Shown in pieces: positions 13,867 through 63,820 of a stretch of 64,000 nt of DNA (its first letter is position 1; each line of letters begins with the position of its first letter). Source of the stretch: Marsupella aquatica (Eukaryota > Plantae > Marchantiophyta); contig OZ316892.1 in the NCBI GenBank assembly GCA_973895155.1, positions 9,404,283-9,468,282 of the forward strand, written 5' to 3'. The position numbers were made by a program, and so were the translations under genes. Under the pieces are notes generated by a model, which was not told where the DNA came from, searched no databases, and worked only from the letters and a program-made list of their open reading frames with translations.

Positions 13867-14045
13867 ATAGAAGTCCGATTGTCGATATCCGATACTATTA
13901 AAATGGCATGTTGCGATGCTAGTAGTATCGGATATATGGTTTTTCAAAATTTATTTTACAAAGGCATCCGATGTGGAGAGAATCGGAAAAAGGAGGTAAA
14001 ATGTACTAGTGAGACAATACAATAAAGCATTCACAATGAAATTAA

Positions 14046-25320: not shown

Positions 25321-25888
25321 GGGTATTTTCTATTAAATTGCAAAGGAATTGTAAGGGGGCACTCCTAGAAGGGGCGACGACTGTTGAGGGGATCTGATAG
25401 AAAGTTTTTGAGGCATCCTCTGATTGATAATGAGGTTGTTCGTGCCTCAAGATTTGTAGATGAGGAGGCTGAATCACCATCGAGATCTGAGAGTAGTGAA
25501 GTATCTACTAGCGAGGAAAGCACAAAGAATTCAGGTTCCGATAGTTCTATTGATGTTTAGTCAGGATTAGATGACTATTGATTTTGTCCAAATCTTCTTG
25601 ATATTTCCTCATCCTTGTGGATAAATATCACTTTAGAAAGAAGTGGTACTTTTAATGTATTTGAGAATGGAAAATTAGTTATGTATCATCTCAAGTCATC
25701 TCAATAAAATACTATTGGTACTATTTTGGTTCATAGGGTTTTGGATATGATAGAACAATTTTTGCTAGCGAGGTTTGCTAGCAACTTTCATGATGGATTG
25801 AATAATTGATATTAGTTTTTTTCTGCCAAATAATGAAGTTAAATGTGAGGTTTTGCTTTGCTAGCAATGGCTTTGTCTTGCTATCAGT

Positions 25889-27279: not shown

Positions 27280-27356
27280 TAGCCCTCCACTTAAATTTCG
27301 TCGTGTCCCCACAAGACATGACCGAATTGAATCAGAAGCGAGTGACATGTTCTTCA

Positions 27357-27833
27357 TTAATAATATTCTGGCTTAATAATCCAAGTAGTGCTCAAAATCA
27401 TTGACGGGAGTTGGGAGATATCCGAATCCAGAATATAAAAATCGAGGTCATGGAATTCTTCTCCGATCTGTATTGGGACTCCTTTAACTCTTCCCCAAAG
27501 ATTAATGATTCGTCCATCGATTGATATCTGAGCAGATATCGGTTGTACTTCTTGATGAACAAATTGCTGGCACAGTCTGTGGGAGAGGAAATTAATTCGA
27601 GAGCCTGGATCAATAACAAAGTGTTGAATAGCATGTCCTCCCAGTTTGATCTTGCCTTCAAAGGAATGTTGGAAAGCACGGGGTAAAGAATTCCAACAAT
27701 CCATAGTAGCTTTGATGTCCCACATGAGCAGATAAATATCAATTCGAAGGAGAAAGAAGGAAACAATTGCAGGATGCTGCAAAAGTAACGGCTTATATAC
27801 ATATAAATGACAACACCGTTTGATATCTCTCAT
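27357..27833 (-). CDS. Small retropepsin-like (aspartic protease fold) ORF in the gypsy 3' region
   Basis: HFVIDPGSRINFLS ... GRVKGVPIQIG ... DFYILD ... MILSTTWI resembles retroviral-type protease motifs. Confidence 0.55.
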   Translation of the reverse strand: MRDIKRCCHLYVYKPLLLQHPAIVSFFLLRIDIYLLMWDIKATMDCWNSLPRAFQHSFEGKIKLGGHAIQHFVIDPGSRINFLSHRLCQQFVHQEVQPISAQISIDGRIINLWGRVKGVPIQIGEEFHDLDFYILDSDISQLPSMILSTTWIIKPEYY

Positions 27834-27845
27834 AAATGGTGTCCT

Positions 27846-30419: not shown

Positions 30420-30808
30420 CGCGTGACTTGTTAGCTCCGTAAGCTCAGTGAGAATCGTGTTCCATAGTGAACTAGGGCGAAGCGCGACTGCTTACTCCTC
30501 AGCGTCCCGTTGAGCTGTCGCAATCCGCCATTGTACAAGACGCCTAGTCATCGGCTCACAGCGTCTCATGCAACTGAACTAATACAAAAGCGGACCTCTG
30601 CACAACGTCCTTTGTAAACTAAGTGGACGCTTCCCCAGCGTCGAGTTACAATGGACGCTTTTCACAGCGTCCAATGTAAAAACTGAAAGTAACTAAATAA
30701 AATAAAATAAAATAAAATATGCCGAATACTTACTAGGGAGGGTCACTAATTCTAACTAAGTATAACTACCGCCCTCCACTTAAATTGCAACCTGTCCCAG
30801 GTGGAATT

Positions 30809-33800: not shown

Positions 33801-36800
33801 TTTATGGGAGCATCAGACAGATAAACTTCCAAGTAACGAACTTCCTCCAGTTCAAATTCCAATGGCTGCAGGACTAGCGAAGAGGTCGAAAAATCCAAGG
33901 TGTACCCATCATCTGTTTGTGTTTCTCCAAAATGTGGTTCCGGAACCCAACTAACAGTCACCTTAGGCTTCCCAAATGAAAGCTCTTGAGATTGCCAATT
34001 AACCTGAACTTGAGCCTTATACAACCATGGTCGGCCTAACAAAACAGGAAAGCTGGATGGTATTTCCGGATTAATAACCACATAATCCAACAGAAAAGGG
34101 ACACCAGCAATCAAAGTTTCTACTTTGGTCAGCTTCCCTATGGGTACCACACGAGACTGATCCGCCATGCGCAAAATCTTGGGAGTGGGCTCAAACTTAG
34201 TGAAACCCAAATTAAATGCTGCTGACTGTGTAATCAGATTAACGCTGGCTCCTCCATCCACAGGAACTCTCCGAATGACACACCCCTGGATTTGAACCTC
34301 AATTTCCATCGGTCCTTTGTCCTCCCACTCTGTTCGTAGCACATCCACAGAAGGTAACTTCTTCTTCCTCCGTTTTCCTGCAAGGAGGCTCCTCAGCTGT
34401 CGCCTATAAACCGGATTGTCCTGTAATAATTCCCCAATGGTGATATGTGCAGGATGATTCTTGACATCTTCAACAATATCATAACCTGGATTTTTCAGTG
34501 GCTCTTTAGCTTTGACTACTACTGGTGGGTTAGGAGATTGCACTTGCTCCTTAACTAGCTCTTCCAGATGGTCTTTCACTTCCAAAGAGATGTCGGGCAA
34601 GAAGTATTTTGGGTCATATCGGTCATAAGCAGGGTCGTCTTCTTTGTCGAGGCCTTCCTTACATGGCTTGCGCCCTTCATCCTTGGGAGCTTTCACGACC
34701 TTCTGATGCTCGTGCTTCTTGGTCTCCTTTTTCTTTGAACGAGTAGTTGCGTAAATATTAGTCAGAACTTTATCCCGATTCTGAACTCGATCATTCGGCA
34801 TACCAACTACTTCAGGTTTCACTAAATGACTTACCAAGACATCAGGCACCACCCCGGATACTGGTTGATGAAAAAGTGAATCTGGCTTTAATTCCACCCG
34901 ATTTACATCCATATGTTGAATGAAGCTGCATTGCTCCATCTCTTCAGAATAAACCATCCGAATCTTGGCTTCAGGTCGACTTGCTTCTTTAACTGGCTCT
35001 TGAGCAAATCGAACCATCAGCCTAGGCTTAGCCGGATTCGGGCATTCCACCGGTAAGTGTCCTTCTTTTCCACAGTTCCCACAGACAGGTGTATACCCCA
35101 CCTCCTGTTTGGGATAAGGGCACTGGGGTGAATAATGATCAGGTTGGCCACAATTCCAACAAGCCCCTTTTTGACGCGGCATTCCTCGTGGTGGGTATCC
35201 TCCCGGGGGTCCCATGGGTGGTCTTGACGTTGGTTTATTGAAAGTGGGCTTAGGTGGTCCCCAAGTCGGTCTGGAAGCAGGAGGTGGTGGGAAATACTAT
35301 CCAGGGGGTGCTGTTTGGACGGTATACGCGGGATCGTACTCATACTCCTCAGCCTCTTCTTGACCATCTACATAATTCACCGGGGTTCGTAATGTGGGGC
35401 ACTCGTTCGGGTAATGGCCCTGCTGACTGCATCGGGTGCACCATACGTTCATTCTCATGGGAGCAGGCAACCTTCGTACTGGTTTTACCGCGGCGATATT
35501 GACATTCAACTTGGACAATTGGCCAGAGAGTTCTTCCATCATGCGATCCATCTTCTTCTGGTTGGGAACTTTATTATTCCCTTTTACAGAGGATTTCTTC
35601 TTTTTAGGAGCAACGGATTCTGAGTCGGAACTTGAGCTTGAACTATCACTAGTGCTCGAATTTGTACTCTCGTCCTCCTCACTAGTGCTACTTTCACTTG
35701 ATTCCGTCTCCGAGTCAGATTTAGACCTGGACGTTTTCTTCTTCTTTCTTTTGTCTTTCTTCAGGTCCTTCTTAACTCGTTTTCTCTCTGAAATCTCCGA
35801 GTCTACGTACTTCTGGGCTGCCTCTTGTACTTCTTCCAAAGTGGTGCCACCTTCTCGTCTCACGTAACGAGCAATCCTGGAGGGTAAACCGTTAATAAAC
35901 CAGTCCTTGATAGTAGATTTCGAGGTAGCTGGATTATATTGATCTACCAAATCCAATAATTTGTCGGCATATTTCCTCACAGACCCATGTTTCTTCATGT
36001 GCAGATGTGAGATTCGGGCAAAGGCACGCGCAGCTGCTCCTTCTTCTTTATATTTGGCCAAGAAAGCAGCCTTCAATTTCCCCCAATCCTGCTTGTCCGG
36101 AAAACGGTCATACCATTTCTGAGCACCCTTTTTCATTAGACCACCAAACAGATTGGCTTTTTCAGCGTCTTGACTCTGTCCATTGGATGCAGCTGCAGCT
36201 TCAAATTCTTTCAAATACACCTCTGCATCCTCCTTGGAAGTACCGAAGAACCGGTCGTACCTCACATTATTTCGAGCCATCGTGGTTGGAGCTAGGAGGG
36301 TAACGAAAGGAAGAGCTGATCGGGTAGCAAATGGGTTTGGGCTGCCCAAGCCTGAACTGCTGCTTGTCTCACTAGAAGACGAACCACCGGCTTCACTCAG
36401 TGGTTCTGGATTATCCAATTGTGAAAGATCGACAGAATTATCTTGGGCCAGCGATTCTGCAACTGTATTCTCGGGCAAACCCAAATTTCTTCCTTCGGTA
36501 TGAGATAAGGCCCTCTCAGTGGTACTATCCACACCAGAGTCAATTTGGTTCACCGAACGTACTGTCTGCTGGCGGAGCTTGGTCTTTTGAGAACCAATAA
36601 GTTTTGGACCTGAACGAAGATTTACAAACAGGGGTCGGGTCGACGTGGGCCTTTCCAAAGAGCCACTTGCCTCTTGAATAGATCCCACTTGTTTCCACAC
36701 ACTACCCGGTGCAGGTGCTCCTGGTGACTGGAATTCGGGTAACAATGTGCGAGGGGTCACTACTAATTTTGCAGCATCCGAATTACTGGAGGTCTTGGTA

Positions 36801-36835
36801 GGTTTTCTTTTATTCGGTGGATCTCCCTCAGACAT
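30809..36835 (-). CDS. Gypsy gag-pol in one reading frame with three in-frame stops (TAG 35297, TGA 33782, TAG 33395)
   Basis: ORFs 35297-36835, 33782-35215, 33395-33760 and 30809-33388 share a frame; CCHC knuckles, protease VDGGAS, RT FIDD, RNase H DSS/TDH, integrase WGIDF; no chromodomain. Confidence 0.95.
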
Positions 36836-38029
36836 CCCTCATTCTCCAAGCACGGGTGATTTTGAGACACCAAACCCGCTCCTCAGGAGTCTTTATGCAA
36901 GGAGTCACCATTTAGGTGCGACGTTATCACCCCACTCCGGGAGATATGAACCTGCTTCCTCAAAGTGACTTCCCGTAGCGTCGTTCAACATCCCTTGCAT
37001 GATTCCTCCCCCTTGCTATCCCGTAGCTAATACTTCCCTTCAGTGACCAGCCGAGATTCTAAAACCTCGTTTTCTCTGGTGCGTCCTTCAGGTTGAGACG
37101 CGGAAAGGCACACCAGAAGCGTCGCGCACGTTGGTTCGTCACAGATTCCACCGGACGCTGCTCACAGCGTCCACTGGGATCGGACGCTACTCGAAGCGTC
37201 CTGACTTGCGGAATCTTCTGGGACGAATCGCATTGGACGCTCTTCGCGGCGTCCTTCCTTATCTCCTTTACGGTGGCGATTACTGGAACCGGGCGTTCCC
37301 CATAATCTCCGACTTCCTTCACCCTGAAATTTCTTTACCACATGGTACGCTACACTAGGCCATCCTACTAATCAGACGTCTAACTCCTTCCTAATCTTCT
37401 ACGCAATTCCTGGTGCATGATTCTTTCCGCTAACTCCCGAATGGAAATGACTAAATATCTCTCCTGTGTGATCCTACCATTCAGCCTTAATATTACTAAA
37501 TGCAAACTTTCATCTTCCCACCAGGTGATAGTTAACCAATGTATGCCATTCCTCCCTCTCAGGCTCAGAACCCAAGAATTAACATAACGATTCCTCAAAT
37601 TCCTAATTCTTAATGTTCCCAAAGATCGGATAGGTGGCATCGGTCACACGAACCAGGATGGTTGGACAATTTTACAAATCATACGTCCCGAGCAACGTTA
37701 GAATAACTTCACTTGTCACTCAAAGTGTCTTTGGTGTCTTCGACTATCTCCAAAGCAACTTGACGAGCAACAGCTCCTCTCTGTGAGGCCTTTTCTGGTG
37801 GGAGGGCGGTTTCTTCTCTTAAGTTTGGCACCACAAATTTTTCCAATACTCTTAAGAGAGCTTCCGGGGCGCTTTGGATAGAGTACGACATCACCTCGAA
37901 ATGGAAGCTCTTCATCTTTTTAACTGGAGTGATGACGCATCTTCACAATTATAGTAGAACGTGAATTCCTCTCCCGTCTAGCTCCTTCTGGCATACACTG
38001 CCTGTACGTCAATTCAATCTTAAATTCGT

Positions 38030-38047
38030 TCCCCGGCAGCGGCGCCA
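38030..38047 (-). other. Primer-binding site (tRNA-Asp type)
   Basis: TGGCGCCGCTGCCGGGGA a few nt inside the 5' LTR end. Confidence 0.8.
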
Positions 38048-38053
38048 AAAAGA

Positions 38054-39444
38054 TGTCGTATAGTGCTAAGTATCAAAAGTGACTCTTCTCACCTAAAACC
38101 AGGGTTTCGATCCCTTTAAGAACAGATTTCAGAATGAATTGTATAACTTTTATCACTCCGAGTGATTTAGAGTCTTGAGCTCTATGTTGACTTCACTTCT
38201 CAATAAAAAAAATCGAATAAACAAACAACAAAGTAACTGAACTTCTGATTTATGAATTAGAGAAGAAATGAGTAAGGATTTAGAGACTACAAGCTGCTAC
38301 TGCCACTCCTTCAGAAAGGATTTGGGCTCAGTATAGACATGAAATCTATCTCATAATTCATCCATCTCACTCTTCAAAACACAAAGGTTAATGATAATGG
38401 AATTCTCAATCTGATGAAGCAGAAGCTTTCTGATTGCAAATGAATGATATGATTTAAAATGCCGTCAACATGGTTTGACATCAGCGATACACAATTCAGT
38501 CAAACTCTAAACCATATTCCAGAATCAAAGCAACAGTACTAACTACTCTGAGAATCAGAATTTACTTCTCATTTATCATTAACTATTCTTGAATTGGCTA
38601 GCGAATCCCGACTCTGCAAGCAAGCCTAGCAGTGAATTCAATACGAGTTTCAGAAATCTGCAACTGAATTCAATCACCACAGGAATCTCTTGAATTCAAT
38701 CTTAACTTCAATCAATATAGCTTTACTTCCATACAAAACACTCACAGCATGCCTTGTTACAATGGAAGGAGGAGAAAACTATTCAGAAGACTCAATTCTG
38801 AATACAGTATTAACTCTATTTCTCTCTACTTCAAATGAGCATTCTACTCTGTCTTATAAGTGCTGGAATCCTAAAATGGAGGAGGTAAGAACAGTCGTGC
38901 CTTTCCAAGCTTAAAACTAAACAAGGGAGAAGCACAGCATAAGTACTTCAACAAGGGTGGTAGAATACTACTTTACTAGTAATCTACTTCAAAAACTAAG
39001 TGTTGAGCGGACGCTGCTAGAAGCGTCGGGAGAATCTGGACGCTGCTAGAAGCGTCTTAAGTAAAACCAACGGACGCTGCTCACACTGCTCACAGCGTCA
39101 ATACTAGGGTGGACGCTGCTCACAGCGTCGTGTGTTGAAGCTGACGCTTTCCACAGCGTCGGTCGAAATCCTCATAGAGTCTTGGTGGCGGTCGGGCGCT
39201 GCCAAAAGCGTCATGAGGAGGTTGGACGCTTCCGCAGCGTCTTGAGTAAAAGAAACGGGCGCTGGTCACAGCGTCGGGCAAAGTACACTAGGAATCGTCA
39301 GGAAAGCCGGAGATGTCAAATATTTCTATAAGTGTCCAGAACAAGTAAATGTTGGCCGGAAGGTGTCTAAAGTGTAAGTAAATCTTGTGATATGCTAAAA
39401 ATAAACAAGTTTCCAGAAAAAATTGCAGGGACACCCATACCACA
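38054..39444 (-). repeat. Gypsy 5' LTR
   Basis: Direct repeat of 25889-27279. Confidence 0.97.
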
Positions 39445-40929
39445 TCAGTATATGTTTTTCCTATCTGTTTTCTCCTTTTTACTAACATTGTTAAAAGCCC
39501 CCTATATAACTATGTCATGTTTGTGCCGATATTTGGATTTTGGATATATTATATTCAATTCCAAAGGAATTGTAAGGGGGAACTCCGAGAGGTAGTATAC
39601 TCTTCATTGGGTCATTTTCACATAATGTCTATCATTAATGCCAATGACTACAATAAGGGTCATCTTGGTAGTCATATTGGAGGTCATTTGGAGCAATTGA
39701 CTGAATATGTGGTCATTAATGAAAACACCTCAAATTAGGGTAATCTTGGTTGTCATACTAGAGGTCAGAAGTACCAAATGACTGGAAATGTGGTCTTTAC
39801 AAAGGCTATTGGGGGGCTCTCTTTGGAGGTACAAGGGAGTTCATTGGGTCATTTGTGAATTAAATGGTGCTTCAATTTGAGGACTAAACATGGGGTCACT
39901 CACGCTGTCATATTGGAAGCCATTAATGTTGGCATATTGGAGGTCCTATTAATTTTTTGTTACCCAACAACTAGTCGTATCCTTAGTCGCCCGCCGTACA
40001 TTGGGTCATTTAGGTGGGGCCCTCTTTAATTTGGATATACCATAACCTTCATTGGGTTATTTGCAAACCAATAATAATTCATTAGTTGCCACACAAATGT
40101 GATTTCCACAATTAGTCTAAACATAGTTAAGAGTTAATGCATAACAATATCCATGGCTTATGGTGGTCATATATAATACCAGATTGGTTGCACATAGGGA
40201 GTTGCAAGTTGGGCGAGAAGTTGGGAGGACATACATTTAGGTACCAAAGGTAATTATGGGTGCATTGGGTGGAGTCTAACTGTGGTCATACTCAGGTGTC
40301 CAAGGAAGGCATATGAGGCCCTGGCAAGGCCACAAGGGGCTCAACTTTTGTGACCAAAGCTTTCTGGTCACAAACGTATTTAGTTATGGTCTTAAAGTGG
40401 ATTTAGTGTGAACCATATGTTGAGGTTGAGGTTATGAGGCAGCATGGTGAACTTGAAGTTGGAGTTTAACCCTAAGACTTAATCAGAGCATCTTCAAAGG
40501 TTACTATGTCCCCAAAGTTACTATGCGCAACGGGACCTTTGGGGAAGAGCACAAGTCGTGAAATGTAGGGTTTTTGTGGTTGATCTGCGCTTTTTCTTCA
40601 GAGGAATGTGTAGTGGCGGTGGGCAATGTGCATGGAGTGCGGGGCGCATTGAGGTCAGTCACGCAGAGTTTAGGCAGCTGCCATGGAGCGCGCACTCCAT
40701 TTCTTCCCATATTGTATCAGGGTGCTGCGCACGGTCGGGGGAGTAGGAAACCTTAGGGTCAGCCGGTAGGACGCGGGAGCTACAACCACAGAGGAGCTCC
40801 GATCCATTATAGTGTCGCGCAGCATTGCGGAGCATTGGGCGTTGCAGCTATAGGTCTCAGAAAGCTGCAAAGGGTGATGACGTGCGATCGATGATAAGCA
40901 CATTGTTGTGAGGATACATTACATCACGA

Positions 40930-49749: not shown

Positions 49750-52054
49750 GGGGGTATTTACATAAGACAGGAAACAGGAAAACAGGAAACCCAAAACAGG
49801 AACCGATGACAGGAAACAGGAAACCGAACACACCAAACTTAAAAGAAAAATACCGGAAACTTGTCTGTTGTTAAGCAAGAACTTGACCCCCAAAACGGGG
49901 CTTTTAGAAGACTGTAGTCAAGTCCAAAAAAAATGATGTAGAATAGCAACAGGCGCTAGAATACTAAGCCAAGGGAACGGTACATTTCAACCTGGGTTAT
50001 ACTGAAAAGCACATTAATGCACCAGGCGCTGCCATTGTAATTGTACAGAATGGAGCTCTAAAAAAGAAACTCTGACGCGTCCGTCGGACCGGTGCAGATA
50101 CTAGCGCCGGGCACTAGTTATACCGCTCAGTCAGACGGAGGCCGACGTGATAAATACGACAAAACCACAGGGACCATCGGACCGACATTTAGGGTTATAC
50201 ATCCAAAAGAACAGACTCCAACCAATTCACATAATTGAACGCCACCCCAAAGCCACAAAGTCTTGCGATACAATTTTTTTAAGTAAGATGGTAGCGCCAG
50301 GCGCTTACAAAAGATAAAAGTGATCCGCATAACCACACCGTAAACGGAAGGTATGAAAGTTTCAAAAAGAAACGCGGCTCCGATGCCTCTCGCTTAAAAC
50401 GGCCGAACAGTAAACTAGTGGTAGGCACTTCACCGAACTCCACACAATCGATAACCAAAATGGCTACTCTAACGACAAGATTTCTAAATTCTGGTCGAGT
50501 CCCGACGAAGTCTTCATCACATTTGGAAAAACTTGAGCGCAATGGGCACCATAGTCTTATCGACCAACGCTAGCGCCCGGCGCATTGGTCGATGAGCCAC
50601 ATTCATCGTTCACTCCAGCATTAGATCGGGCTCTATCTGGAACGAAACCGTGCTCACGGTTCCTCACGAACGCCATCGTTGGAACTCGCTCATCACCGGT
50701 TTGGGGAAACATGCCAGGAATGGTCGTGTTCTAGAAATCAACACGGCCAAGTTCTTCCTGTTTCCTCATCTCATCCTCCCAAGTTGGACTGTAAGGAGGA
50801 GGTGGCCAGTGAATCGTAAACCGCTCTGCAAATCTCCTAGGCAGAGAATCCCTCAGGCATGGGATCAGATTGTCACCAGGACTAATGGCTTCGTCTTGGG
50901 GGAGACTAAAACGGTTGCGGAAAGCAGTTGTCTCCGACCATTCAGGTTGCTCAGTTTCTGGAACCGAGCCCTCCTCTGAAATGATTGTTGTGTGTCTTTG
51001 AAAAGAGGCCACAGAGATTCTCCTTGGGTAATTCATGGTAAGACACCTCTAGGCAGATTCAAAGATATAGTTGTCAATACGACCCCGGTCAGCGAAAGAG
51101 CTCAAAGATTATCGAAAGTGGGAACAGAAACCAATAAAGCAGTAGTGAAACAAGGCAGTCGGGATTTAATCTCCCAAGTATTATAAGCAAATCCGTTCGA
51201 CCTGGATACGCCCACCGAAATGAGGGAGGGGTTGGACGTTGCACCCTCAAAGTCCCCAAACTACCCGTTCAACATGGAACGATCACTCCCATCTCACATG
51301 ATAGTTGCGACGTTTACCATCGTCTCCATTCAGAAATGGTCGACCAAAACCATTATTGGAATCCCAAAATGTTTATGGCATGCAAAGTCCTGTTGTGACG
51401 TGAAGTGACCGTTTGTATGAGAAAAATCCGGTATCAGCTCACATGCGAGTCGCGACAGGCCGAACGAACTTAGAACGGGACAAAAGATTACCTCGAAACT
51501 TCCAATGACATCATCCAGAGCGTACGGGAGAATCATTGTAAGATAGTCTTGACCGTCATACAGTTATAGTAGCACCCGGCGCTAATATTAGAGTATTAAA
51601 ATGTTTACGTTAATAACAGAAGGAACAAACAAAACAGTTGTCGCTGACATGTGGAAAACACTTAACGGACAATGTTTCCGAAATATGTTTTGCTAGCGCC
51701 AGGCGCTAGCATAATTCAATTGAGAAATAGACACAAAATAAACGGAGTTGCAGGTCAATTGTTTCCGACCAATCGGAATGTCCAGTCTTAGGAAGTAAAC
51801 CTACCCTGAAAATGGACAAAACCAAATTGAAAAATATGCGGGTATATGATCATGGACATTAAATTATGGTAGCACCAGGCGCTACCATAAAAACATTCGA
51901 ATATAGAGAACATAATAGAATAAAGATACACCAAAAAAGTATCCAATGTATCAAATACATTTGAATAAACGATTTTTACAGGTTACATAACAGTAGCGCC
52001 CGGCGCTAGTATAACTTCAGTGTATATAAATCCCAAAATACCTGTCCGAGGGAA

Positions 52055-55000
52055 ATCAATCTGAGAATTCTGATTCACTTGACTCGGACCTGTCGATGGA
52101 TTCTGCCTCCATGTCTAAAAATTCATTCTCGGCCATATCATCAACATATCGACTACGAATAAATTTTCTATCAGACCCTCTCCTTAATCTCAAACCTTTA
52201 TGCTCCCAATGGAGGGTCCGCACACTATTAGCTCGTCTAGCAATATTCTCAGCATAGGAAGGTAGTACAAATGGTTTCTCGGGAGTTTTAATATATCGCC
52301 TAGCTACTTTCCTTCTGAGTTTGAAACGCCGGCGAAGATTCCAGTCTGACCTGAGGACGAGAAGTTTAGGGGTTTATGTCAACACCAAGAATATTTAAAA
52401 AAACAAAAAAAATAACGAGAAATCTAAGAGAGAATAAGGTAATCTACTAAAAAACCCCAAAAAAGGGTTTGCTTAAGAGCTTACTCGGAAGCTTCTTACT
52501 CAGAAGAGTCTCCGCTGTCACTCCCTCCATTAGATCCTGGATCTTCTCCGGTAAGGGACACTTTGGGAATGTTAGGATCCTCCTCTTCTTCCCCCTCTTC
52601 TGTCTCATCCTCATCTTCAGAATCAAAATTTAAAACAGACTTCAGTTTGTCTCTCTTTCGTTTTGAAATTGAAGACTTTGGAGGGGCTTTGGGCTCAGAC
52701 TCTTTTGGAGTAAGAAGATCCAGAAATACCTTAGAAGCGGTTTCCACAAACTCCTTCCTATTCTTGAGTCCAATTACAAAACGACCACAATTATCACCTG
52801 CAACAAATGTACTCCCCGAACCTACAGCCCAATCCAGAACAATATCTCCTGGACACATAATTAGTTCCAACACAGCCTGCATGAATCCTGGATGTAGTCT
52901 GGCATTCCCGGAAAATTCAAGCTCCAGAGTTGTATCAACCTTCGCGAAGGGAAGTCCAATCAGATTTGTAATGGAAGGATCCTCTATTTTTGAAAGGGGT
53001 TTGAACTTAGGATCTTTTGGGACTTTCACCTTGGATGATATCCGCAAAAATACATCCAAACGTAAAGTGAATACCCGAAAAGGGAACAAAATAGAGGAAG
53101 GACCCTTAGATTACAATAGCGTCGGGCGCTAGCACATAATCCACAAAATCCGTTGAATAGTTTACCTGAAATAAGGTCAAATAAAAAAGAAAGTAATAGA
53201 TAATATGAATAGCGCCGGGCGCTAGCAAAAGGATCAATAAAATTACCTGTAAATCAGACTTTGCTTTGTACATTGGGAACCCCATGACGACATTATGTGT
53301 ACATAGACACTGGAATTTCTTGGACTCTTGACAAGCGGAGATGACCTGCGAAATTTGATCATACTCCCCCGTATGGAGTATCGCAATAATTCCGTCATCC
53401 GACAAAAAAGGATCCATTGCCCGGAAAAAGGATTGGGCTAGGGTACAGTCGGGGATGTTCCATTTAGGGACCTTTCTGTCAAGCAAAGTCGGTTTTAGTC
53501 CAGTTGGCAAGTAAATAAAACCAGCGTCAACACCAAAAGGTCTTTGCTTCCCACCCCTCACCACTCCTTTCAGCCGGCATCCAGATTTTATCAGGTCTTT
53601 CCCCCACTTTTCGGCATCATTTACCCATTCCGGCTTCTCCTCATTAAACACACTGTCCACAAGTTCACTGACACTGGTCTCAACGAAACAATGACGAGAC
53701 GACTTGGCTTTAAAATCCCCAACATCACGTTGGAGCCCAGTGGCAGCTTGAGAATCCCGTTCTGATTGTCCAGCATCTCGAGTCCTTCTACTTTTCTTTT
53801 TTGTACTCGTCGCATCGACTGGGACAATCAATTTCCCAGAATTAACTGGTGTAAGTGGATCTGGCAAAGCGCCAGTATTTGCTTCTGAAGCTTCTGGAGT
53901 AACCTTCGTATCATCTGTGCCATCTGCATCTGACTTCTTTTGACCTATGGACATATTGCAAAGAATGTGGGATTAGGGCCTTCAAGCAAACACTGATGAA
54001 GATTGAATCACAAGAATGGCAGCGCCGGGCGCTAGCAAACATTTGATAAAAGATTGAAAACTTACGTTTCTTTCCGGATCGCGTGGAGGCACTTGGCACT
54101 GCAGTGTCTATTTTAACTTTCCCTCGTGGCCTGCGGCTCCTATCTACATGGACAACTACTGTCTCACAGATTGTCTATAACTCTGTAGAAGATTTATCGA
54201 CGTCGCTAAGGAGACCTTGCTTCATCTCAGAAACAATGTTGGGAAGGATCTGCGACTTTGCAAGTTTCAGAAACCAATCCTTCTCCACTTCATCAAAGGG
54301 TGAATCCCACTTGTCTGTGTCAAGGTACCATGGGCAGTGAATTCTTTCCCAATCGGACATTTCCCTTGGGGGTAGTTTACCCTCAGCAAGATACATCGAG
54401 TATAAGTCACAAACAAGATCTCCCTCCTTTACAGTAATCCACTTGTGAAATGCGACTGGATACAACCAAAGAGCATCCGGGGAATGAATTTCCATCCAAA
54501 TGTAGAAACGATACAAATACCTCTTGGCCCTCTTCTGATTTTTCTCGGTATATACCTCTTTATCAGGGTATTTTGATGGCCACATGGTGTTGAAGAACTT
54601 TGCCTTCACAAGATCCCCATACCTTCGGAATTCACTTGAAATTACTTCAATCAGATTTTCTACCGAGTCACACCCTGACTGGGCAAGCCTATCAACCGGT
54701 AGCGTTTCAATCGTTGCGGAAATTGCCGAGTGTAGCATCCCAATTGCAATTCCCTCGACGGTATTCCATGTTCGCCATGTGTGGCACCACTGCTTCATTG
54801 GATCATCGTTCACACTCGAAGGGTGGAAGAATTGTTTTCTCAACTCTAGAGTACAGTGAGCAACGAGCAATGTACACCTCTATTTTGGATCAAGCGCCGA
54901 AACTGCAGTGAAGAGTCTGGCACGGTCCATAGTGCAAACAATCGAATCTGGTTTTTTCTCTCGCTTGTTTTTCTCTGTCAAAACATACATCTCTGCACAG

Positions 55001-56393
55001 GTACCTAGAAAATCTTCAAACTCGGGACTAAGAAGAGGAGTGATTTTGGACATTTTTGTGGACCAATCTTTAGTAGATTCTTTCAACATGAGCGATTGCC
55101 GCTTTGTGATGTCATCAGCCGACCAAGGATTGCCTTGACTTGCTGCTAGTGCCATGTCCATCTTGAACTGGTTAGTGTAAGCTTTGATTTTGTTTTCGCA
55201 TAAAATATAGACTAGAGCTTCCAGAGGCATTTTTCTTGTGTACCAAGAATGTTTTCGAGTCTTCTGTTTGATATACTCAAACTTTGCATAATTGGCACTA
55301 TCAATGATAGACTTGTAGTGCTCTAGATTGTGAGAAAGAATCCTCCGGATTCTGTTTGCGTCAAGGATCCACGACGGTTCAACAACGGCCTGCCCTAACC
55401 TGCAATAGGTCAGGTTTTCAATTATTAGCGCCGGGCGCTAGCTTAACTTAAACACTCAATTATCCTATAAACACTGTATTATTTTATAAACACTCCATAA
55501 ACACTGTATTTATGTAATCAACAAGTATTGCGGAAATCGTTAATTACAAGCTAGGGCAAAAAAATGTACTGGTTCACAGTGTGCATAGCCGCCTCAATCT
55601 GAATTTGTGACGCTTTGCCACCCTTGAAAATTGTGCAGAGAACTCTGGGATGATACTTGACGTTGTCAGGATTTTCCTTAGTGACCATCGTCCATGAGTA
55701 AAGTCGATGATTCCCGTCAAACACTGAGAACATTTTGTCTTTCAAGATCATAAAGGTAGGATCTGCCTCGCACTCCAGCTCAAACTTCTTGTTCTCAGCA
55801 ACCCAAATTGGATCCCAACTCCCCCTGATCTCTTCAGTGCAAATTTGCTCCACACCATCCGAATCGGTCGGTTGTACAAAAAACCGCATTCCTATCCTGG
55901 GATTGTATCCACTACTTCGGAATGAGTCTTTCAATTTCTCAATTGACGCACTCTCCTTCTGTAACGTCCGAACAACCTCCATGTGGACCAGGCGACAAAG
56001 CGGAATCCGTGGAGGTTCCTTCTCATTACCCCGTAAATCTTTCCCAAATGACATAATGTGTTTGGAGATGACTTCATCCATTCCAAGTCTTACCTCGTTG
56101 CCCTCTCCCAAAGCGTAATCGGTCATGCCATCAGTCTCCATTCTGCCCCTTCTTGGCTTCTGGCTCGGGAGTGTTGTGTTCGACGAAGGAATCGCTCCGC
56201 TCGATCTTGTAACACGACTCGAATAGAATGCCCTTGAGAATGAAGATTGTGTACTCTCGCAATGACCCTGATCTCCCTCCGGAACCGTGGTATACCCTCT
56301 TGGAGAGCTTGGAGCGCTTGAAGGTTGCATCGTGGAGCCCCAAAGTTTGTGAAGGTGCTTGTACGACACAGAGCCAGTGTCTATTCTCACGCT
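52055..56393 (-). pseudogene. Multi-exon accessory gene: ParB/Srx-like N-terminal domain plus C-terminal beta-class N6A/N4C DNA methyltransferase-like domain; two in-frame TAG stops
   Basis: RIPLCRLVH...VRTL...FSVFDGNHRL (55551-56390); VDAGFIYLPTG...FLSDDGIIAIL (53106-53954); HPGFMQAVLELIMCPGDIVLDWAVGSGSTFVAGDNCGRFVIGL (52496-53089); GT-AG intron about 55400-55570 keeps the frame. Confidence 0.72.
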
Positions 56394-56693
56394 CTGAATA
56401 GATTACTGTACAAAAAGAACAACCAGGAAACCTTTAAAACTTGGGCGGTTGACATCATGGGAGGTAGATCGATGCGGAAGGAAAGGATGTCACTCACCAA
56501 TCATGACAAGGACAAGTGGCCGATACTGTTTAGAATGAGTATATGTAATGCCTCTTTTTAAGTGGGGTAAGGCAGGAGCGATGATCCGTAGGCTATTGTT
56601 AAGGAAGTCAACTGCAAAAAGCGCGAAACAATGAGTACGTTCATGCACTTTACCGTTAGATATAACCATTGGGATAATACAAGTCATTCCTTT

Positions 56694-58373
56694 CACTAGT
56701 ACATTTTACCTCCTTTTTCCGATTCTCTCCACATCGGACGCCTTTGTAAAATAAAATTTGAAAAACCATATATCCAATACTACTAGCATCGCAACATGCC
56801 ATTTTAATAGTATCGGATATCGACAATCGGACTTCTATCGGAAAGTCCGATGGTGGGAGAATGGGAAAGTCCGATGGTGGGAGAATGGGAAAGTCCGATG
56901 CTAGGAGAATGGGAAAGTCCAATGGTGAGAGAATGGGAAAGTCCGATGCTAGGAGAATGGGAAAGTCCGATGGTGAGAGAATGGGAAAGTCCGATGCTAG
57001 GAGAATGGGAAAGTTTGAAGCAATCAAAATGGGATATGCATTTCAGTGGACGCGACATGCTCAGGTCACCCATCTCTTCCTTTAATTGGGTTTCTACTTT
57101 CATTTGGAATTATGAGCTAGGTGCCCATCTCCCTTGACATGTGAACTCTTCAAATTTTCTCAACTAATTGGTCACCCATCCCAATTGCTATTCCTCCAAC
57201 ATGAGCTTAACTTTGTGGTTCTTATTCCTTACATTGTACATGCAAGCTTAGCACTTTTGTTGTTTGACTTAGAGTGTTTGGGGATTTTATACACTTGTGA
57301 GTTTACTAAGACCCATAATTTGGACCCATTCTTGATCCATTTTTCTCTATCATGAGATTAGATCTTTGCATCAAGTGACCTATTCTAGTTACCCTATTAC
57401 ATTCCCCTAGGAGAAACCAATAGAAATCTGGCAGGGGTCATTCATCGATAGTAAAGCCCTCCTTCATTAGATTTGATATGGGATAATTATGGCTTATTAG
57501 TTATGGATGATATTTTGGTCCTTCCAAAGCCTCAGCGTCAATGGCTCCTGATTGTCTCATCTTTTATCAACTATGTTGTTGTTGGACTTGCAACAAAGAC
57601 TACATGGGACAAGCAACCTCCTTCTAGATGATGTATTTTGGACTTGGCATGTTGAGCACATATTTCCGTAAGGGAACAATATGTTGGGTCTTGGAATGAG
57701 GCAAAAACAACACTCAAGTCCATTTGCCTCAAGTATGAAGTTATTCATGCATGCAAGAATGATTGCATCTTTTGGGAATATGTCGGTGCAACCACATACC
57801 CCATCTAACACATCAAAACTTTTCATTCTAACACAATCAAAAATTTTCTTTTTGTCATAACCAGACTTTCCCATACTCCCAGCATCGGACTTTCCCATTC
57901 TTCTAGCATCGGACTTTCCCATACTCCCCGCATCGGACTTTCCCATTCTTCCAGCATCGGAATTTCCCATTCTTCTAGCATCAGACTTTCCCATACTCCC
58001 AGCATCAGACTTTCCCATTCTTCCAACATCGGACTTTGCCATGTTAGCACAATCGGATATAATATCCGTTATTATTAACTACGGAAAGTTTCCGATCAAT
58101 ATTGTAACGCACATCATTTTCGTTACAAAAAACATCGGACATATCAATCAAAGTTTATGTTGAGGGATCCGATGTGCTTTCTAACGGATATGATCCGTTT
58201 TTTAACGCATCGGAAAGGTTCCGTTGTCAATTATATCGGAAATGAAGATATCCGAAGCTGAGAGTATGGCATATTGCCATTTTTTGATAATCGGAATTTC
58301 CGATGCTAAAAGAATCGGACGCCGATTGTTCGCAAAAATTGAGCATCGGAAATCAGCTTAATATGTACTAGTG
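56694..58373. mobile_element. Non-autonomous CACTA deletion derivative, copy 2 (inverted relative to 12330-14011)
   Basis: TIRs CACTAGTACAT / ATGTACTAGTG, TSD TTT, near-identical reverse complement of copy 1. Confidence 0.96.
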
Positions 58374-58910
58374 TTTCAATACTAGCGCCAGGCGCTAGCA
58401 TTCAAAAACCACCAGAATAACATCATTAACACTGATGTTAGCCATGAAATTATGTCAGCGCCCGGCGCTAACTATATTTTATACGTGTATATTTCCTACA
58501 AACAACAATTATATAAAACAAACTCAATGTATTTTGACATTGATGTTATTCCAATAAAATTAATAGAGTTTTGCACCATTAATTGGATGTGGATTAATGA
58601 TAGAGCCTGGCGCTAGCATATGAAGTTTGGTTTTGGGTTTTAATTCCGTGACATATTTATGGTAGCGCCGGGCGCTAGTAAATATCTGACCGTGTTTCTC
58701 AAACTATATTATTGATGTTACCAGTACGTAGTGACGTTGGCAAAACGACAAACAATATTTATGTTTCTAGATTTTACGACTAGTACCAATTTTGTCGTTC
58801 ACAAACGATAATCTTCTGGAGTTTGTTACGAATTCACTTAACTTAAGTCGGGTTATGTTCTTCTATTCTCTCATTTTCTCTGTTTGTCAATTCGGGATTA
58901 TTGTTCCGCA

Positions 58911-61900
58911 ATGTCTAATTCAGTTGTGCTTCTGCGTTCTAGAACTGGAGAGATTGTACGCATTCCTTTAGGTTCTTCCGATACGTACAAACAGGTTAGT
59001 GAGAACTATCTTTGTGGAAGATTTGACATTGGCATCAATGACATTCTTTCCATCAAACCTGTTGATGCTTCTGGAGATGAGGCTGGTGACGCATTGTTTG
59101 ATATCGACGATGGAGTCAGATTTTGGCAACTGAACGCTGGGAAGAGATACTATATCAATCTTCGAGATAATTCCGTTACGAATGAAATTCATCCGGTTCC
59201 CGTCATTCACCTTTCCGATAGTGATGAGGAGGATGTTGCCGTTCATTCGCAAAAATCGCCCAATCCAGGAACTTCGGTCAAGATGGAAGGTCAGTTTCCT
59301 TTTGAGACACACGTTGCGGGGGGTGTTGCGGAGACACACGTTGTGGGGGGTGTTGCGGGAGGTATTGTCTATCGTCGAAGCGCGATGGATGCTATTCTCA
59401 AATCAACTAGCCATAGTGAACTATCGCGATTCATCCGAACATGTGATTTCAGGCATGAGCAGGTGAATTGCCTCCCAAGTAAATACAATGGAAACGTTGT
59501 ATTTGAATTGCCTCTCGTAGAAGGTCTTCTTTCAAAAGGTTCAAGACTCCATGACATGGATCGGCCGAAAGACTGCTACTTCTAGACACGAATATTTCCA
59601 ACCTCTGCGAATGTACAACCGAAAAAGTTCTGGGAATTTGGTAAAGTGACGTGTACAGGAGCACTAGAATGTCAGAATCAGAAGTGTGATTATCTTTTGC
59701 GGAAGAAACGAAGAAATTGTAAAGCTTGGGATGGGACACCCAAACTCGCGGGGCCACATACTGTAGGAAAGATGATTGACGAGGGTGGCGTAGTTTGTCA
59801 CTATTGCCAACGATTACCCTTTTGTACTGAAGCATGTCCTGCAATGCTTTTTTATATGTACCCTCAACTACTTCTAGACGCGGATACTTGTAAGCATATG
59901 TCCCGTCTTGCTGTGCATGTCGGAACTCATGCTCATCCCAGTCGAAAAGTTTTTTCTCGTGGTGCTGAAAAGATTGCTCACAACTTCATAAAGAAACAAC
60001 ATGAAGCTACGCCGTGTGCCACACCATCGGGTCTGAAGAACGCTATAACTGGATCTTTAAGGAAGGCTCTTTGTGTGTCCAACAATGACATTGGTGAATT
60101 GGAGGAAAGAGAAATTTGGGAGTCGTTAATGGTAGTTTCGACCCCTCAAAAGTTTGCATCTCTTTTTCGAAGCGTTCGGCAAGACCAAAAAGGCAAAGGT
60201 GAGTTGGAGTTTCTTGTTGAAATGCAGAAATGCATAATCTTTCCCTTTCTACAACATTACATGCTCCCAGGTCAAGGCTGTAAAGAGGATACGCCACATA
60301 TTTTCAAAATGACTGTAAAAGGGCACGGATCTGGAGTTGATTTGTTGCGCCAAATGCAGCCTGGAGGTCCATTGGAAGGGGCATGGGTCAGTTTTGATGT
60401 GATGAGGAGGATGACAAAAGATTGGATAACTTTTAGTGCACATGTTTATGATCACAATTATCGTGCTCTTTGCACAATTTTCACATGTGAGTTGAAAGCA
60501 GAAGATTCAGAGTCTCTAGAGAAAGCCTGGAAATTGATGATTGAGGTTTGCCATGAAAATGGGTTGGATAATGTTGTAATCCATGGATTCATGGCTGACA
60601 ATGCCCAAGCTGGGTGGAATGCTGTTCGGAATGTATTTTTCGGAGGACATCCTAACCCAGAAAAGGAGCGATCGGATGCGTTTCACTTCTATCAATCGTT
60701 TCATCGTCACTCGATTGAAGGTGTATTGGAAGAAAAATGAGATGAGCATCGGAAGATGTGGGACTCTTTAAGGAACGCGTCCACATTTCTTGGAGCGTAC
60801 AGAATTTCAAGGGATATCGATGTATGGTGGAGATCTGGGAATTGTGTTCCAGGGAAGCTTCGAATGCTCCAAGGTTGGTTGGCGTGGTGGGTGGTCCGAT
60901 GGCGTCAATGGGGAAATTTCATTTGTTTGGTGAGTTTCAACATCCAGTAACCACTCAAACTCATACTAGCGCTTGGCGCTACCATTATTTTCAGTTAGTG
61001 TGGTCTCGTAGGTTTCGTTCATCATTATCTTGTTTTTGATACTAGCGCCCGACGCTAGTATTAATGGACCACTTGTTTCTTAAATTTAGCAAAAATATGG
61101 TTTGAAGTTGCTAGCGCCATGCGCTGTCATTGATTTTATGTACATGTGGCTAAGTCATATTTCCTAAAATCTGCTCCTATGGTGGATGCAGAACAAAAGC
61201 GTGGAGGAAAGCGCTATGATTCCTAACTGTACTACTTCAGAGGCGGCGCATTCCATAATGAAGGCTTGGCAAACTAAGAAAAAGGCTGGCCTATTCGAAG
61301 CATGTGAGATGGACCAAAATAGGGGTGTCTCACAAGTTGCAGCATATACGGCGTATAAGAGAGGTCTTCACCAAGGAACCGGACCTACAATTTGGGAATT
61401 GGCATTCCATTCGGCGGACCAGGCAGGTTCTTCAAAACTTTTCCAAGATGCTTCCAATATGCTTCTTTCTGGTGTGGCTGAATTCGACCTGGAAAGGAGT
61501 GGTCCACTCAATGGGGATGTTACAACAAAGTCTATGAAGAGGAAAGGTTAGGCCTCTGGGAACATCTCGGCACAAGACTCCCATCGGCATGACACTATTC
61601 TTGTAACATCACCCAATACTCGAGGCATGAAGAGGAAAAACTTAAACAAGACCGAATTCTCCCCGAATGCAGAGGGACCTGTTCACGATAACATTGGCGT
61701 TGTGGATCTGTTGGAAAGCGAAATTGAAGAAGGCTGTCAGTGGAGTACTCCGCCATGGAGGAGGGTGACAAGGTCTTCTGTAGCACCGCAAAGTGCACCT
61801 CTGAACCTCCAAAGGGTTGTCCATGACTCATCTGTGTTGGAGACAGATGTGCGACCAGGTGCTTGGCACCTGCGAAGAGTGACAAAACATGGTGCAGGGC

Positions 61901-62709
61901 CTCAATGTAATGGATCTCTTGGTGGTAAATCGGAGCGAGATGAGTGTCAAAATTGTCTGAAAAAGGTTGGTTACCCGTCAACGGATGGTGTAGTTGGCAT
62001 TGTTGTCAAAGGACACCGCATGTTCAGGGGAGAACCACATCCTGAGATGATTTGGTTCTGTCCCAATAATGCATGCCATAAGAGTCGGCCCCGTCGTAAT
62101 GTGGTGAATCTTCCCCCGTTTCCTCATACCCTGCCCGTTTTGAAGGGCACAAATCTTTCGGAAGCTGAGGTCCAATTCCTATCTCAGCAAGGGATTGCGA
62201 TCAATCCAGAGGCCGGACGTCAGGCTCCTCCATCTCCATTTGACTTGCGAATCAATGTGAATGTTTTCCCTGAGAAAATCAATCTCCTGGAGACAAATAT
62301 CCGCCTTCGGAGTAGGAATGGTAAAAATATAGTCCCACGTTCAAATCTTTCACAAGGACACAACAAAAGAATTGAATCTGCAAACAACGAGTTGATGACA
62401 CTTATTCAACAGTTTGATGTTTCAATCGGAAACTCTTGGGGCAAACAATTTCAGATCCAGACCCAAGAGAAACTTCGTACGGCAAACACTTACTGGGTGC
62501 AGATTTGTATTTTCCCCTGCTGTTCTTGTGAGGACTTCTATCGTCGCCATTCTCATGGATGGCCTTTCATGCCTTGCAAGCATCTATATTGGGTTTATAC
62601 CAACGTCCTCAAACTAGATGTCGTGGATTCAACTTTGGCTAGTCGGCCAATTTTGACTGTAGGTGAGGTGAGGCTCATTCTAGCTAGGCAGAATTCTCTA
62701 AACTTATAG
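58911..62709 (+). pseudogene. MULE-type DDE transposase with N-terminal Cys/His finger and C-terminal SWIM finger; intron about 60930-61191; three in-frame stops (59583, 60738, 61549)
   Basis: CTGALECQNQKC..CHYC..HVGTHAH; WVSFD, GFMADNAQAGWNAVRNVF..DAFHF, TTSEAAH; SWIM CSCEDF...CKHLYW. Confidence 0.85.
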
Positions 62710-63293
62710 ACTAGAGATTTAGTAACGTTGAACGGCTCCAACCTCATTTGTCGCATTGCAACGTTTCATTTCTTTTCAACGATCACATTTGGTTAATATA
62801 TATGGCTAGCGCTCGGCGCTAGCATAAGTTTGTCCCGTTCTGAGTGAATCTCTTTCATTTCATGGGCCGGATGGATTCTTTAAAGTACTTGTGTTTGAAA
62901 CCAAAATTTTCGTTTCTTAACATTCTGGGAATGGAATTCTTCTCATCTAAACTCTTACACTTGTAGGTATTTTTGCAATAAGTTTATTGCAATGGGCTAG
63001 AAATCTTGGTTTGTTTTTTGTTAGCGCCTAGCGATATTATAGAATACAGTTCCGATTCCGATGATATTTTTAAGATAAGTAACATTTTGAGTGTGTTTCG
63101 TATCAGCAGCCAGTGTATGGTTGGACCCACTCGATGGTTTATGTATATTTGGTGGAGAAGTGACTGCATTTAGTTGTTGTAAGGAACCCGATCAAGTGTT
63201 ACCTTTCGCTAAAATGTGGGCTCAAAACTTCAAAACATTCATGGTACAGGTTCCTGTTTTCCTGTTAACAAGAGTTCTGTTTTCCTGTTTCCT

Positions 63294-63820
63294 CGACATT
63301 CACTGAGAAGCGGGTGGACAGGTCTGGAGCAACTAGAGAAGAATCTGTACAGTATGTAGGGGCCTTGACAGATATCTTAGTACTGAATTACGGCAGCTTG
63401 AGGAAAGAGGTGATTCTTTTCAAGGGGAAATGGGCAGATCCATCATGGACTCCTAAATCCTCTGCCAGTATGAGGTATTCTGAGTCTGGTCTTTGGCAGG
63501 TGAATTTCCATAGAGAACTGGGTGTGTCCAAGAAAATGGATTACGTTTTCCCAAAGCAAGTGGAGCAGGTTTTCTTCCACCCCAATGAGAAGGGGATAGC
63601 ATGGAGAACAATCCTCCACAAAGAATCCAGGTCCACAAGGGTGTTAGGTGATTACACAGATGTTGATTTCCATGCTACAATGGAAAACAATGCCAAATTA
63701 CACATTGAATTGGCTAAAGCCTGTAGGACTAGAGCAAATCCAGGACCAAGTACTGGTCCCAAACGAGGCAGAGATGCAGAGGGATCTGCAAGAAAGGGTA
63801 GGCCTAAGCAGCGAATAGGT
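63294..63820 (+). pseudogene. 3' part (DUF4216-like) of the CACTA C transposase
   Basis: YVGALTDILVLNY...VILFKGKW...YVFPKQVEQVFF...WRTI in ORF 63314-63964. Confidence 0.85.

What the first reader, a model, noticed from the sequence alone, without database searches (positions are those of the whole stretch)
49944..63036. About 22 parS-like palindromes (TAGCGCCnGGCGCTA) in introns and spacers of the same element
Seen: the 15-bp inverted repeat, often extended to GCTAGCGCCnGGCGCTAGC, lies in introns of the ParB-MTase gene (55426, 54020, 53210, 53117), the transposase intron (60967, 61043, 61112), the divergent promoter (58383-58677) and both flanks. I saw none in the recognised exons or elsewhere in the window. 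Its centre is a CCNGG site. Established: bacterial ParB loads on 16-bp parS palindromes and spreads; Arabidopsis VANDAL Mutators use VANC proteins that bind short motifs accumulated in their own non-coding DNA to remove silencing. Inference: these are cognate sites for the ParB-MTase-like protein, a two-component self-recognition system able to coat the whole element.
Basis: partly seen in the sequence, partly recalled or inferred. Interest (0 to 1): 0.9.

Follow-up and report, generated by a model that had tools for sequence, protein, structure and literature searches.

The report
Transposon palindromes for ParB-like cargo protein
A broken plant jumping gene carries 21 copies of its own mirror-image DNA word, all outside its coding parts, which its cargo protein (predicted bacterial ParB DNA-binding fold plus a likely dead methylase domain) likely binds to recognise and probably un-silence its own copies; similar cargo genes are already published from seaweeds.

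Summary
Confirmed: 21 palindromes within 2 mismatches (6 exact; shuffles give at most 1), all inside a 13.5-kb Mutator-like element, none in coding DNA (p about 2e-9). The site is longer than reported, WTRN-TAGCGCC-N-GGCGCTA-NYAW. Its two halves are conserved independently, without extra pairing, which fits a protein dimer on duplex DNA rather than a hairpin. The element ends carry a different repeat, which argues against the transposase. A Riccia homologue of the cargo protein folds like ParB N-domain plus DNA-binding domain (aligning along ParB-parS, Noc and KorB). The ParB CTP motif is altered, no ParA was found, and the methylase domain lacks DPPY in 6 of 6 sequences, so 'parS' and self-methylation are analogies. 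Two distant relatives carry a different, related palindrome in the same intron (weak co-variation). Against: a neighbouring Gypsy element without this gene has its own palindrome with a similar half-site; binding is untested; no genome-wide scan was possible. The concept is in print for Ectocarpus and Bostrychia transposons and for VANC. The scan found this system before on other DNA of the same genome. New variant of a known kind.

The parts
49750..63295 (.). Mutator-like DNA transposon, decayed copy, inserted in a CACTA transposase gene; the right tip and some host DNA are missing, so no target duplication can be read
   Evidence: a contig joins 49750 to 63296 with 119 other letters (empty site); host DUF4218 and DUF4216 on either side
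49750..49825 (+). left end with short CAGGAA/ACAGGAAA repeats (6 CAGGAA); likely transposase sites (inferred)
63251..63295 (-). right end, the same repeat inverted (3 copies), truncated
49944..52008 (.). 8 palindromes 3' of the cargo gene: 49944, 50102, 50292, 50571, 51570, 51694, 51870, 51994
53117..53224 (.). 2 palindromes (53117, 53210) in cargo-gene intron 3 (53075-53246)
   Evidence: exon limits from Riccia homologue P0053
54020..54034 (.). palindrome in cargo-gene intron 2 (53945-54065)
55426..55440 (.). palindrome in cargo-gene intron 1 (55400-55569)
58383..58677 (.). 4 palindromes between the two divergent genes: 58383, 58456, 58601, 58663
60967..61126 (.). 3 palindromes (60967, 61043, 61112) in the transposase intron (60930-61191)
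62807..63036 (.). 2 palindromes 3' of the transposase: 62807, 63022
52056..56330 (-). cargo gene, 5 exons (56330-55570, 55399-54066, 53944-53247, 53074-52500, 52350-52056), 1220 codons with 2 internal stops and a non-AG acceptor at intron 3; ParB-like N-domain, helical DNA-binding-like region, beta-class amino-methyltransferase-like domain with YLPT where DPPY is expected
   Evidence: start codon inferred
58911..62709 (+). MULE-like transposase, 2 exons (58911-60929, 61192-62709), 1178 codons with 3 internal stops; C-terminal SWIM-like finger
   Evidence: Atlas 0.94 to a cluster with MULE on 61% of members; SWIM E 0.49, weak
56697..58371 (.). nested non-autonomous CACTA-type element (CACTAG...CTAGTG, TTT on both sides), no palindrome; second copy at about 12329-14012
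   Evidence: other copies of the host element lack it (joints 56690 to 58374 in 4 of 4 runs)

Best explanation
The 21 palindromes lie only in the non-coding DNA of a Mutator-like transposon and are likely the binding sites of a dimer of the element's own cargo protein, whose predicted ParB-type DNA-binding region would read the two half-sites and would likely shield or switch on family copies, probably without methylating DNA. Shown: the array, its confinement, the 23-bp symmetric consensus, the gene models, the missing catalytic motif. Predicted: the ParB fold with a DNA-binding region. Inferred: dimer binding (one subunit per half-site), marking of every intron, the promoter and both flanks, and a VANC-like outcome (keeping host silencing off the element, in trans for broken copies like this one). 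Spreading as a nucleotide-gated clamp is possible but unsupported.
For: Array far above chance and confined to one element; 0 of 21 in exons. Half-site conservation beyond a free position (+2 pyrimidine 40 of 42, +3 A 32 of 42, +4 A/T 41 of 42), with left-right symmetry no higher than independent halves predict (+1: 7 of 21 against 7.0; +2: 12 against 9.9; +3: 13 against 12.6). Ends use another motif and hold no palindrome. Model of Riccia P0053 residues 156-688, pLDDT 87.9: top 10 Foldseek rows all ParB/Noc; VIA Z 8.6, rmsd 2.6 A over 98 residues to ParB 7BM8; 187 of 190 residues of ParB 6T1F, 206 of 209 of KorB 8QA9 and 201 of 203 of Noc 7OL9 aligned. Same transposase type joined to the cargo exon in one Riccia-like gene model, P0018. 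Other copies have the full palindrome at 50571 and 58601, and listed variants at 51692 and 51991 keep or restore the long consensus. L002 and L003 (59% alike, 37-39% to the window) carry a different odd-length quasi-palindrome in the same intron 1 (2 and 1 copies; L002 count exceeded 200 of 200 shuffles). Precedents: PMC5735166, PMC12477816, bioRxiv 2025.02.11.637652, PMC13768133 (passages).
Against: No binding data. No Foldseek match reached E 0.001 (best 0.067); the whole-chain alignments have rmsd 6 to 13 A and 9-13% identity, so the helix-turn-helix is not pinned down; the model is of a homologue 27-37% identical, not of the window protein. A Gypsy element in the same window has 16 copies of its own non-coding palindrome with a similar half-site and no such gene. 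Variation across copies is not depleted in the sites: 6 of the 40 listed variant places (65 in all) fall in four 15-bp cores against 4.9 expected, and one deep contig of run X4 has lost the 51870 site. L001 and L004 show no array in 1.2 and 1.8 kb; the two L002 sites lie in one 48-bp duplication and their left arms are imperfect. CpG retention (O/E 0.88 non-coding, 0.71 coding) is high against the host CACTA (0.18) but like the neighbouring Gypsy (0.73) and Copia (0.69).
Confidence: 0.45

Rival explanations
1. The cargo protein binds the sites but acts as a KorB-like repressor or organiser: it damps the element's own transcription, or condenses and pairs the element for transposition, and does not counter host silencing.
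For: Four sites sit between the two divergent genes; KorB, a ParB-family clamp, represses from dispersed odd-length palindromes (PMC13768133, passages); KorB is among the best fold matches.
Against: Sites cover introns and both 3' flanks as VANC sites do; no partner repressor gene was recognised among 17 ORFs scanned.
Confidence: 0.15
2. The sites are bound by a host transcription or chromatin factor that several transposon families exploit; the cargo gene is unrelated to them.
For: The neighbouring Gypsy element has 16 non-coding palindromes built on G(A/G)CGCT, the same half-site, without the cargo gene.
Against: The Gypsy half-sites face the other way with a 6-bp gap, so one dimer would not fit both; distant relatives of the cargo gene carry a different palindrome in the same intron; no site in the other 49 kb of the window.
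Confidence: 0.17
3. The methyltransferase-like domain is active with an unusual motif, and the element writes 4mC or 6mA in or near the palindromes as a self mark.
For: Beta-class order and a near-intact motif I; Asp kept at the first motif position in 4 of 4 Riccia sequences; the idea is proposed for Ectocarpus; liverworts can use 4mC (bioRxiv 2021.02.12.428880, passages).
Against: None of 6 sequences has (D/N/S)PP(Y/F/W); all lack the aromatic residue; the window and its closest homologue also lack the Asp.
Confidence: 0.1
4. The palindromes are internal transposase sites that help assemble the transposition complex.
For: The transposase has a Cys/His-rich N-terminal region that could bind DNA (by eye); two sites lie within 260 bp of the ends.
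Against: The ends carry a different repeat and no palindrome; 19 of 21 sites lie deeper inside.
Confidence: 0.08
5. The palindromes act as RNA or single-strand hairpins, or are neutral by-products of local duplication.
For: Each folds as a 6-bp stem; two introns with paired sites fold better than shuffles (z -5.05 and -2.51).
Against: Two single-site introns fold no better than shuffles (z -0.66, 0.50); no excess flank pairing; no compensatory change among 19 deviations; sites also lie outside genes; flanks are not duplicated blocks (best pair 0.50 against a random 95th percentile of 0.52; the mean, 0.33 against 0.29, is higher, which I put down to AT-richness).
Confidence: 0.05

Closest known systems
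Ectocarpus Sola1-1_Ec32 accessory gene (PMC12477816, passages seen)
   Same: [quoted passage not shown]
   Different: Brown alga, Sola1 transposase; the main text has no mention of palindromes (0 hits) and assumes an active enzyme; here a land-plant Mutator-like element, a defined dispersed site and no catalytic motif. Sequence homology to it was not tested; supplements not read.
Bostrychia Plavaka PAG3 (bioRxiv 10.1101/2025.02.11.637652, passages seen)
   Same: Transposon-borne ParB-like protein with inverted repeats in the element, proposed as its own binding sites.
   Different: ParB is fused to a 2OG oxygenase, the methylase is a separate gene, and the repeats are tandem arrays beside the gene, not single sites in every intron. 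Its supplements are closed.
Arabidopsis VANDAL/VANC (PMC5735166, passages seen)
   Same: Mutator-like element, accessory protein, short motifs in introns, intergenic and terminal non-coding DNA, family-specific motifs.
   Different: VANC motifs are 8-9 bp, non-palindromic and spread by tandem repeats; here 23-bp palindromes with unrelated flanks and a ParB-type protein. VANC binding and demethylation are shown; here they are inferred.
RK2 KorB-OB and ParB-parS (PMC13768133, passages seen)
   Same: ParB fold followed by a helical DNA-binding region; odd-length palindrome with a one-base centre (OB); regulation from dispersed sites.
   Different: GERRxR motif replaced by DGNHRL; no ParA found; long helical insertions; fused pseudo-methylase; eukaryotic chromatin.

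Membership tests
ParABS / parS | ParB/Srx N-terminal fold | tested here: met
   Homologue model: Z 8.6, rmsd 2.6 A, 98 residues to 7BM8; top 4 rows of the wide search are ParB-family; window exon 37% identical to that homologue
ParABS / parS | Helix-turn-helix DNA-binding domain after the N-domain | tested here: inconclusive
   Whole-chain alignments reach model residue 374-381 but at rmsd 6-13 A; domain not folded alone
ParABS / parS | GERRxR CTP-binding motif | tested here: not met
   DGNHR in 20 of 21-22 aligned sequences at each position
ParABS / parS | Linked ParA ATPase | tested here: inconclusive
   No ParA family among 17 ORFs scanned with Pfam; smaller ORFs not scanned
ParABS / parS | Site-specific loading and spreading | not testable with these tools
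   needs binding assays
beta-class N4C/N6A DNA methyltransferase | Motif IV before motif I; SAM-binding motif I | tested here: met
   PF01555 E 1.3e-6 on motif I exon; profile hits DpnA E 1.8e-4 and CcrM E 6.8e-4; order
beta-class N4C/N6A DNA methyltransferase | Catalytic (D/N/S)PP(Y/F/W) | tested here: not met
   YLPT in the window and P0063; DLPT, DLPT, DMPT, DMPS in four Riccia proteins; position assigned by pattern, the fold of this domain failed (pLDDT 33)
Mutator (MULE) superfamily | MULE-type DDE transposase | tested here: met
   Atlas best hit 0.94, 10 of 10 named hits in the MULE clan; Pfam MULE itself not hit
Mutator (MULE) superfamily | Inverted termini | tested here: inconclusive
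   Inverted short repeats at both ends; right tip lost
Mutator (MULE) superfamily | 9-10 bp target duplication (recalled) | tested here: inconclusive
   119 host letters are missing at the junction
VANDAL/VANC | Motifs concentrated in non-coding DNA of the element | tested here: met
   0 of 21 in exons
VANDAL/VANC | Motifs spread by tandem repeats | tested here: not met
   no tandem array at the sites; flanks not duplicated
VANDAL/VANC | Accessory protein homologous to VANC | tested here: inconclusive
   no VANC row in fold searches; residues beyond about 380 of the model barely tested
VANDAL/VANC | Sequence-specific loss of methylation in trans | not testable with these tools
   needs methylome
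Algal ParB-like/methyltransferase transposon cargo (Sola1-1_Ec32 type) | ParB-like plus N4/N6 methyltransferase domain in one gene, opposite to the transposase | tested here: met
Algal ParB-like/methyltransferase transposon cargo (Sola1-1_Ec32 type) | Sequence homology to the algal proteins | not tested
   algal sequences not obtained

The most novel reading that the evidence does not exclude
Bryophyte Mutator elements have turned a bacterial or phage ParB-methylase into a family-specific anti-silencing clamp: a dimer loads at private palindromes placed in every intron, spreads over the element and blocks or reads host methylation through a dead methylase domain, with protein and palindrome changing together from family to family. 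It would be a second, unrelated invention of the VANC strategy, and one of several private protein-site pairs among the transposons of this genome.
Probability: 0.25. Interest if true: 0.8.

Novelty: new variant of a known kind. Interest (0 to 1): 0.5.

Why it matters
It turns a published but untested idea (ParB-type cargo proteins of eukaryotic transposons recognise their own element) into a direct experiment: a defined 23-bp site, a candidate reader and natural variants in related families. If right, it shows how transposons of early land plants escape silencing with a bacterial part, tests whether a ParB clamp can work on chromatin, and offers a compact protein-site pair for targeting.

Tried and rejected
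No whole genome is held, so the genome-wide scan could not be run. Pfam and PDB sequence searches do not detect the ParB domain (PHROGs E 0.054 for one homologue). A search for longer homologues of the ParB exon found none among 331 candidates. The methyltransferase-domain fold failed (pLDDT 33). The homodimer prediction gave no answer. The Atlas gave no usable lead for the middle exon. No relative in viral contigs; the 23-bp pattern hit one viral contig once, with no similarity to the window. Metagenome contigs gave only 4 short loci. No RNA holder listed. Scan look-ups by words, sequence and relatives were empty. Paper searches: (0 papers); none listed a land-plant ParB-methylase Mutator with palindromes; PMC4738411 (passages) describes ParB-HTH methylases of chlorophytes and chytrids of another methylase group. 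Iyer 2011, cited by PMC12477816, was not read. I first considered a KDZ/Zisupton transposase (recalled) and dropped it. The CCNGG centre as a methylation target is not supported. A test for purifying selection on the sites was inconclusive.
Full report
Observation. The 15-mer occurs 6 times exactly and 21 times within 2 mismatches; 100 shuffles gave at most 1. Nothing within 3 mismatches lies outside 49944-63036.

The element. The array lies in a 13.5-kb insertion in a CACTA transposase gene (DUF4218 before, DUF4216 after). A contig of run X1 joins 49750 to 63296 with 119 other letters, which gives the limits and shows that the right tip and some host DNA are gone. The ends carry inverted CAGGAA repeats (6 left, 3 right) and no palindrome. 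A 1.7-kb non-autonomous CACTA-type element is nested between the genes, has a second copy at 12.3-14.0 kb, holds no site, and is absent from other copies in 4 of 4 runs. Six runs from 4 studies and 3 coded organisms hold part of the element; the 4 laid on the whole stretch cover all 30 bins. The named homologues are from the liverwort Riccia sorocarpa (5 of 10 clusters looked up, the other 5 unnamed), so the host is likely a bryophyte; that is inference.

Genes. The plus strand encodes a MULE-like transposase (Atlas 0.94; Pfam MULE not hit) in 2 exons with 3 internal stops. The minus strand encodes a 1220-codon cargo gene in 5 exons with 2 internal stops; its exons follow Riccia P0053 along the whole length. 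This copy is dead, so any function is at family level or in trans.

Anatomy of the site. 0 of 21 sites touch an exon (p about 2e-9; a possible third ORF at 50731-51048 was not counted as coding and holds no site either). Three of four cargo introns, the transposase intron, the intergenic region and both 3' flanks carry sites. The half-site extends as GGCGCTA-N-Y-A-W (40, 32 and 41 of 42 half-sites at the three outer positions), giving a 23-bp palindrome with a free centre. The two flanks agree no more than independent halves would, and none of 19 deviations is compensated. That fits two protein subunits reading duplex DNA. 9 of 19 deviations are C>T or G>A, as expected of methylated DNA in decay. 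The sites are not tandem expansions, unlike VANC motifs.

Other copies. Contigs carry the perfect palindrome at 58601 and 50571 where this copy is damaged. In 51545-52030, 40 of 65 variant places were listed: none in the two perfect cores (2.5 expected), two in their outer arms that keep or restore the consensus, but 6 in the two imperfect cores, 5 of them from one diverged X4 contig that has lost the 51870 site. Overall 6 against 4.9 expected: no depletion, and sites turn over.

The cargo protein. A model of P0053 residues 156-688 (46 sequences, pLDDT 87.9) matched ParB and Noc in the top 10 Foldseek rows, none at E 0.001. VIA gave Z 8.6 for the N-domain and nearly whole-chain alignments to ParB 6T1F, KorB 8QA9 and Noc 7OL9 at rmsd 6-13 A; the wide search ranked four ParB-family chains first, Z 6.0-7.6; phage ParB-like proteins led the viral library. 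The nucleotide motif is DGNHR, not GERRxR. The C-terminal domain is a beta-class amino-methyltransferase by profile but lacks the catalytic tetrapeptide in 6 of 6 sequences that cover it. Its fold could not be predicted.

Co-variation. Four short metagenome loci encode distant ParB exons with the same first intron position. None has the window's site. L002 and L003, 59% alike and 37-39% to the window, share GGGTCGCCGAG in that intron; in L002 it forms two 8-bp-arm inverted repeats with an odd centre, more than in 200 of 200 shuffles. Its right half resembles the window's half-site. This is 3 sites in 2 loci, two of them in one duplication; L001 and L004 show nothing. It is a lead.

Counter-example. 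A Gypsy element at 25886-39445 carries 16 copies of GACGCT-N6-AGCGTC within 1 mismatch, in its LTRs, leader and intergenic DNA, and has no ParB-methylase gene but an 881-codon extra ORF of no known family. Private palindromes are therefore not unique to ParB-bearing elements. The shared half-site keeps a host factor in play; the opposite orientation argues for a different reader, perhaps that extra ORF.

Mechanism. Most likely the cargo protein dimer binds the palindromes and so marks family copies, with a VANC-like protective or activating effect and no methyl transfer (0.45; reader identity about 0.65). Rivals: host factor 0.17, KorB-like repression 0.15, active methylase 0.10, transposase 0.08, hairpin or neutral 0.05.

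Prior art. ParB-like plus methyltransferase cargo is published for Ectocarpus Sola1 (PMC12477816, passages), and a ParB cargo with nearby inverted repeats for Bostrychia Plavaka (bioRxiv 2025.02.11.637652, passages); both propose self-binding without tests. VANC is the tested model (PMC5735166, passages). Seven searches listed no land-plant case; supplements of these papers were not read and may bear on this. The scan reported the same system on other DNA of this genome (8 shown of 115 notes that fit); those notes gave me the Ectocarpus lead and are not independent support. Verdict: real feature, new variant of a known kind, interest 0.5.

Noticed in passing
window 25886-39445 (minus strand): Gypsy LTR element with 99.9% identical 1395-bp LTRs, an 881-codon extra ORF (27846-30491) of no known family, and 16 copies of its own palindrome GACGCT-N6-AGCGTC in LTRs, leader and intergenic DNA; the half-site resembles the Mutator one in opposite orientation. 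A candidate second protein-site pair.
   Followed up: partly
L002:883-1001; L003:745-763: A different odd-length quasi-palindrome in intron 1 of two related distant homologues of the cargo gene.
   Followed up: partly
L001:121-136: One GGCGCTAC half-site upstream of a 49%-identical ParB exon; single and possibly chance.
   Followed up: no
window 50731-51048 and about 51330-51530 (minus strand): A possible third small gene in the 1-kb site-free gap of the element; no Pfam hit for the 105-aa ORF.
   Followed up: partly
window 6171-7004 and 19946-20761: Two related SET-domain ORFs (PF00856); the first lies next to CACTA transposase ORFs, so they may be chromatin-modifying cargo of other transposons.
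   Followed up: partly
window 56697-58371 and 12329-14012: Two 98% identical copies of a non-autonomous CACTA-type element with 24-bp subterminal arrays.
   Followed up: yes
window 58402 to 61039 (joints): Deep contigs in runs X1 and X2 join two palindromes with 38 other letters between: either a deleted derivative or a related family using the same site.
   Followed up: no
P0018: A database gene model joins this transposase's N-terminal part to the cargo gene's second exon, which suggests the two genes are neighbours in that genome too.
   Followed up: partly
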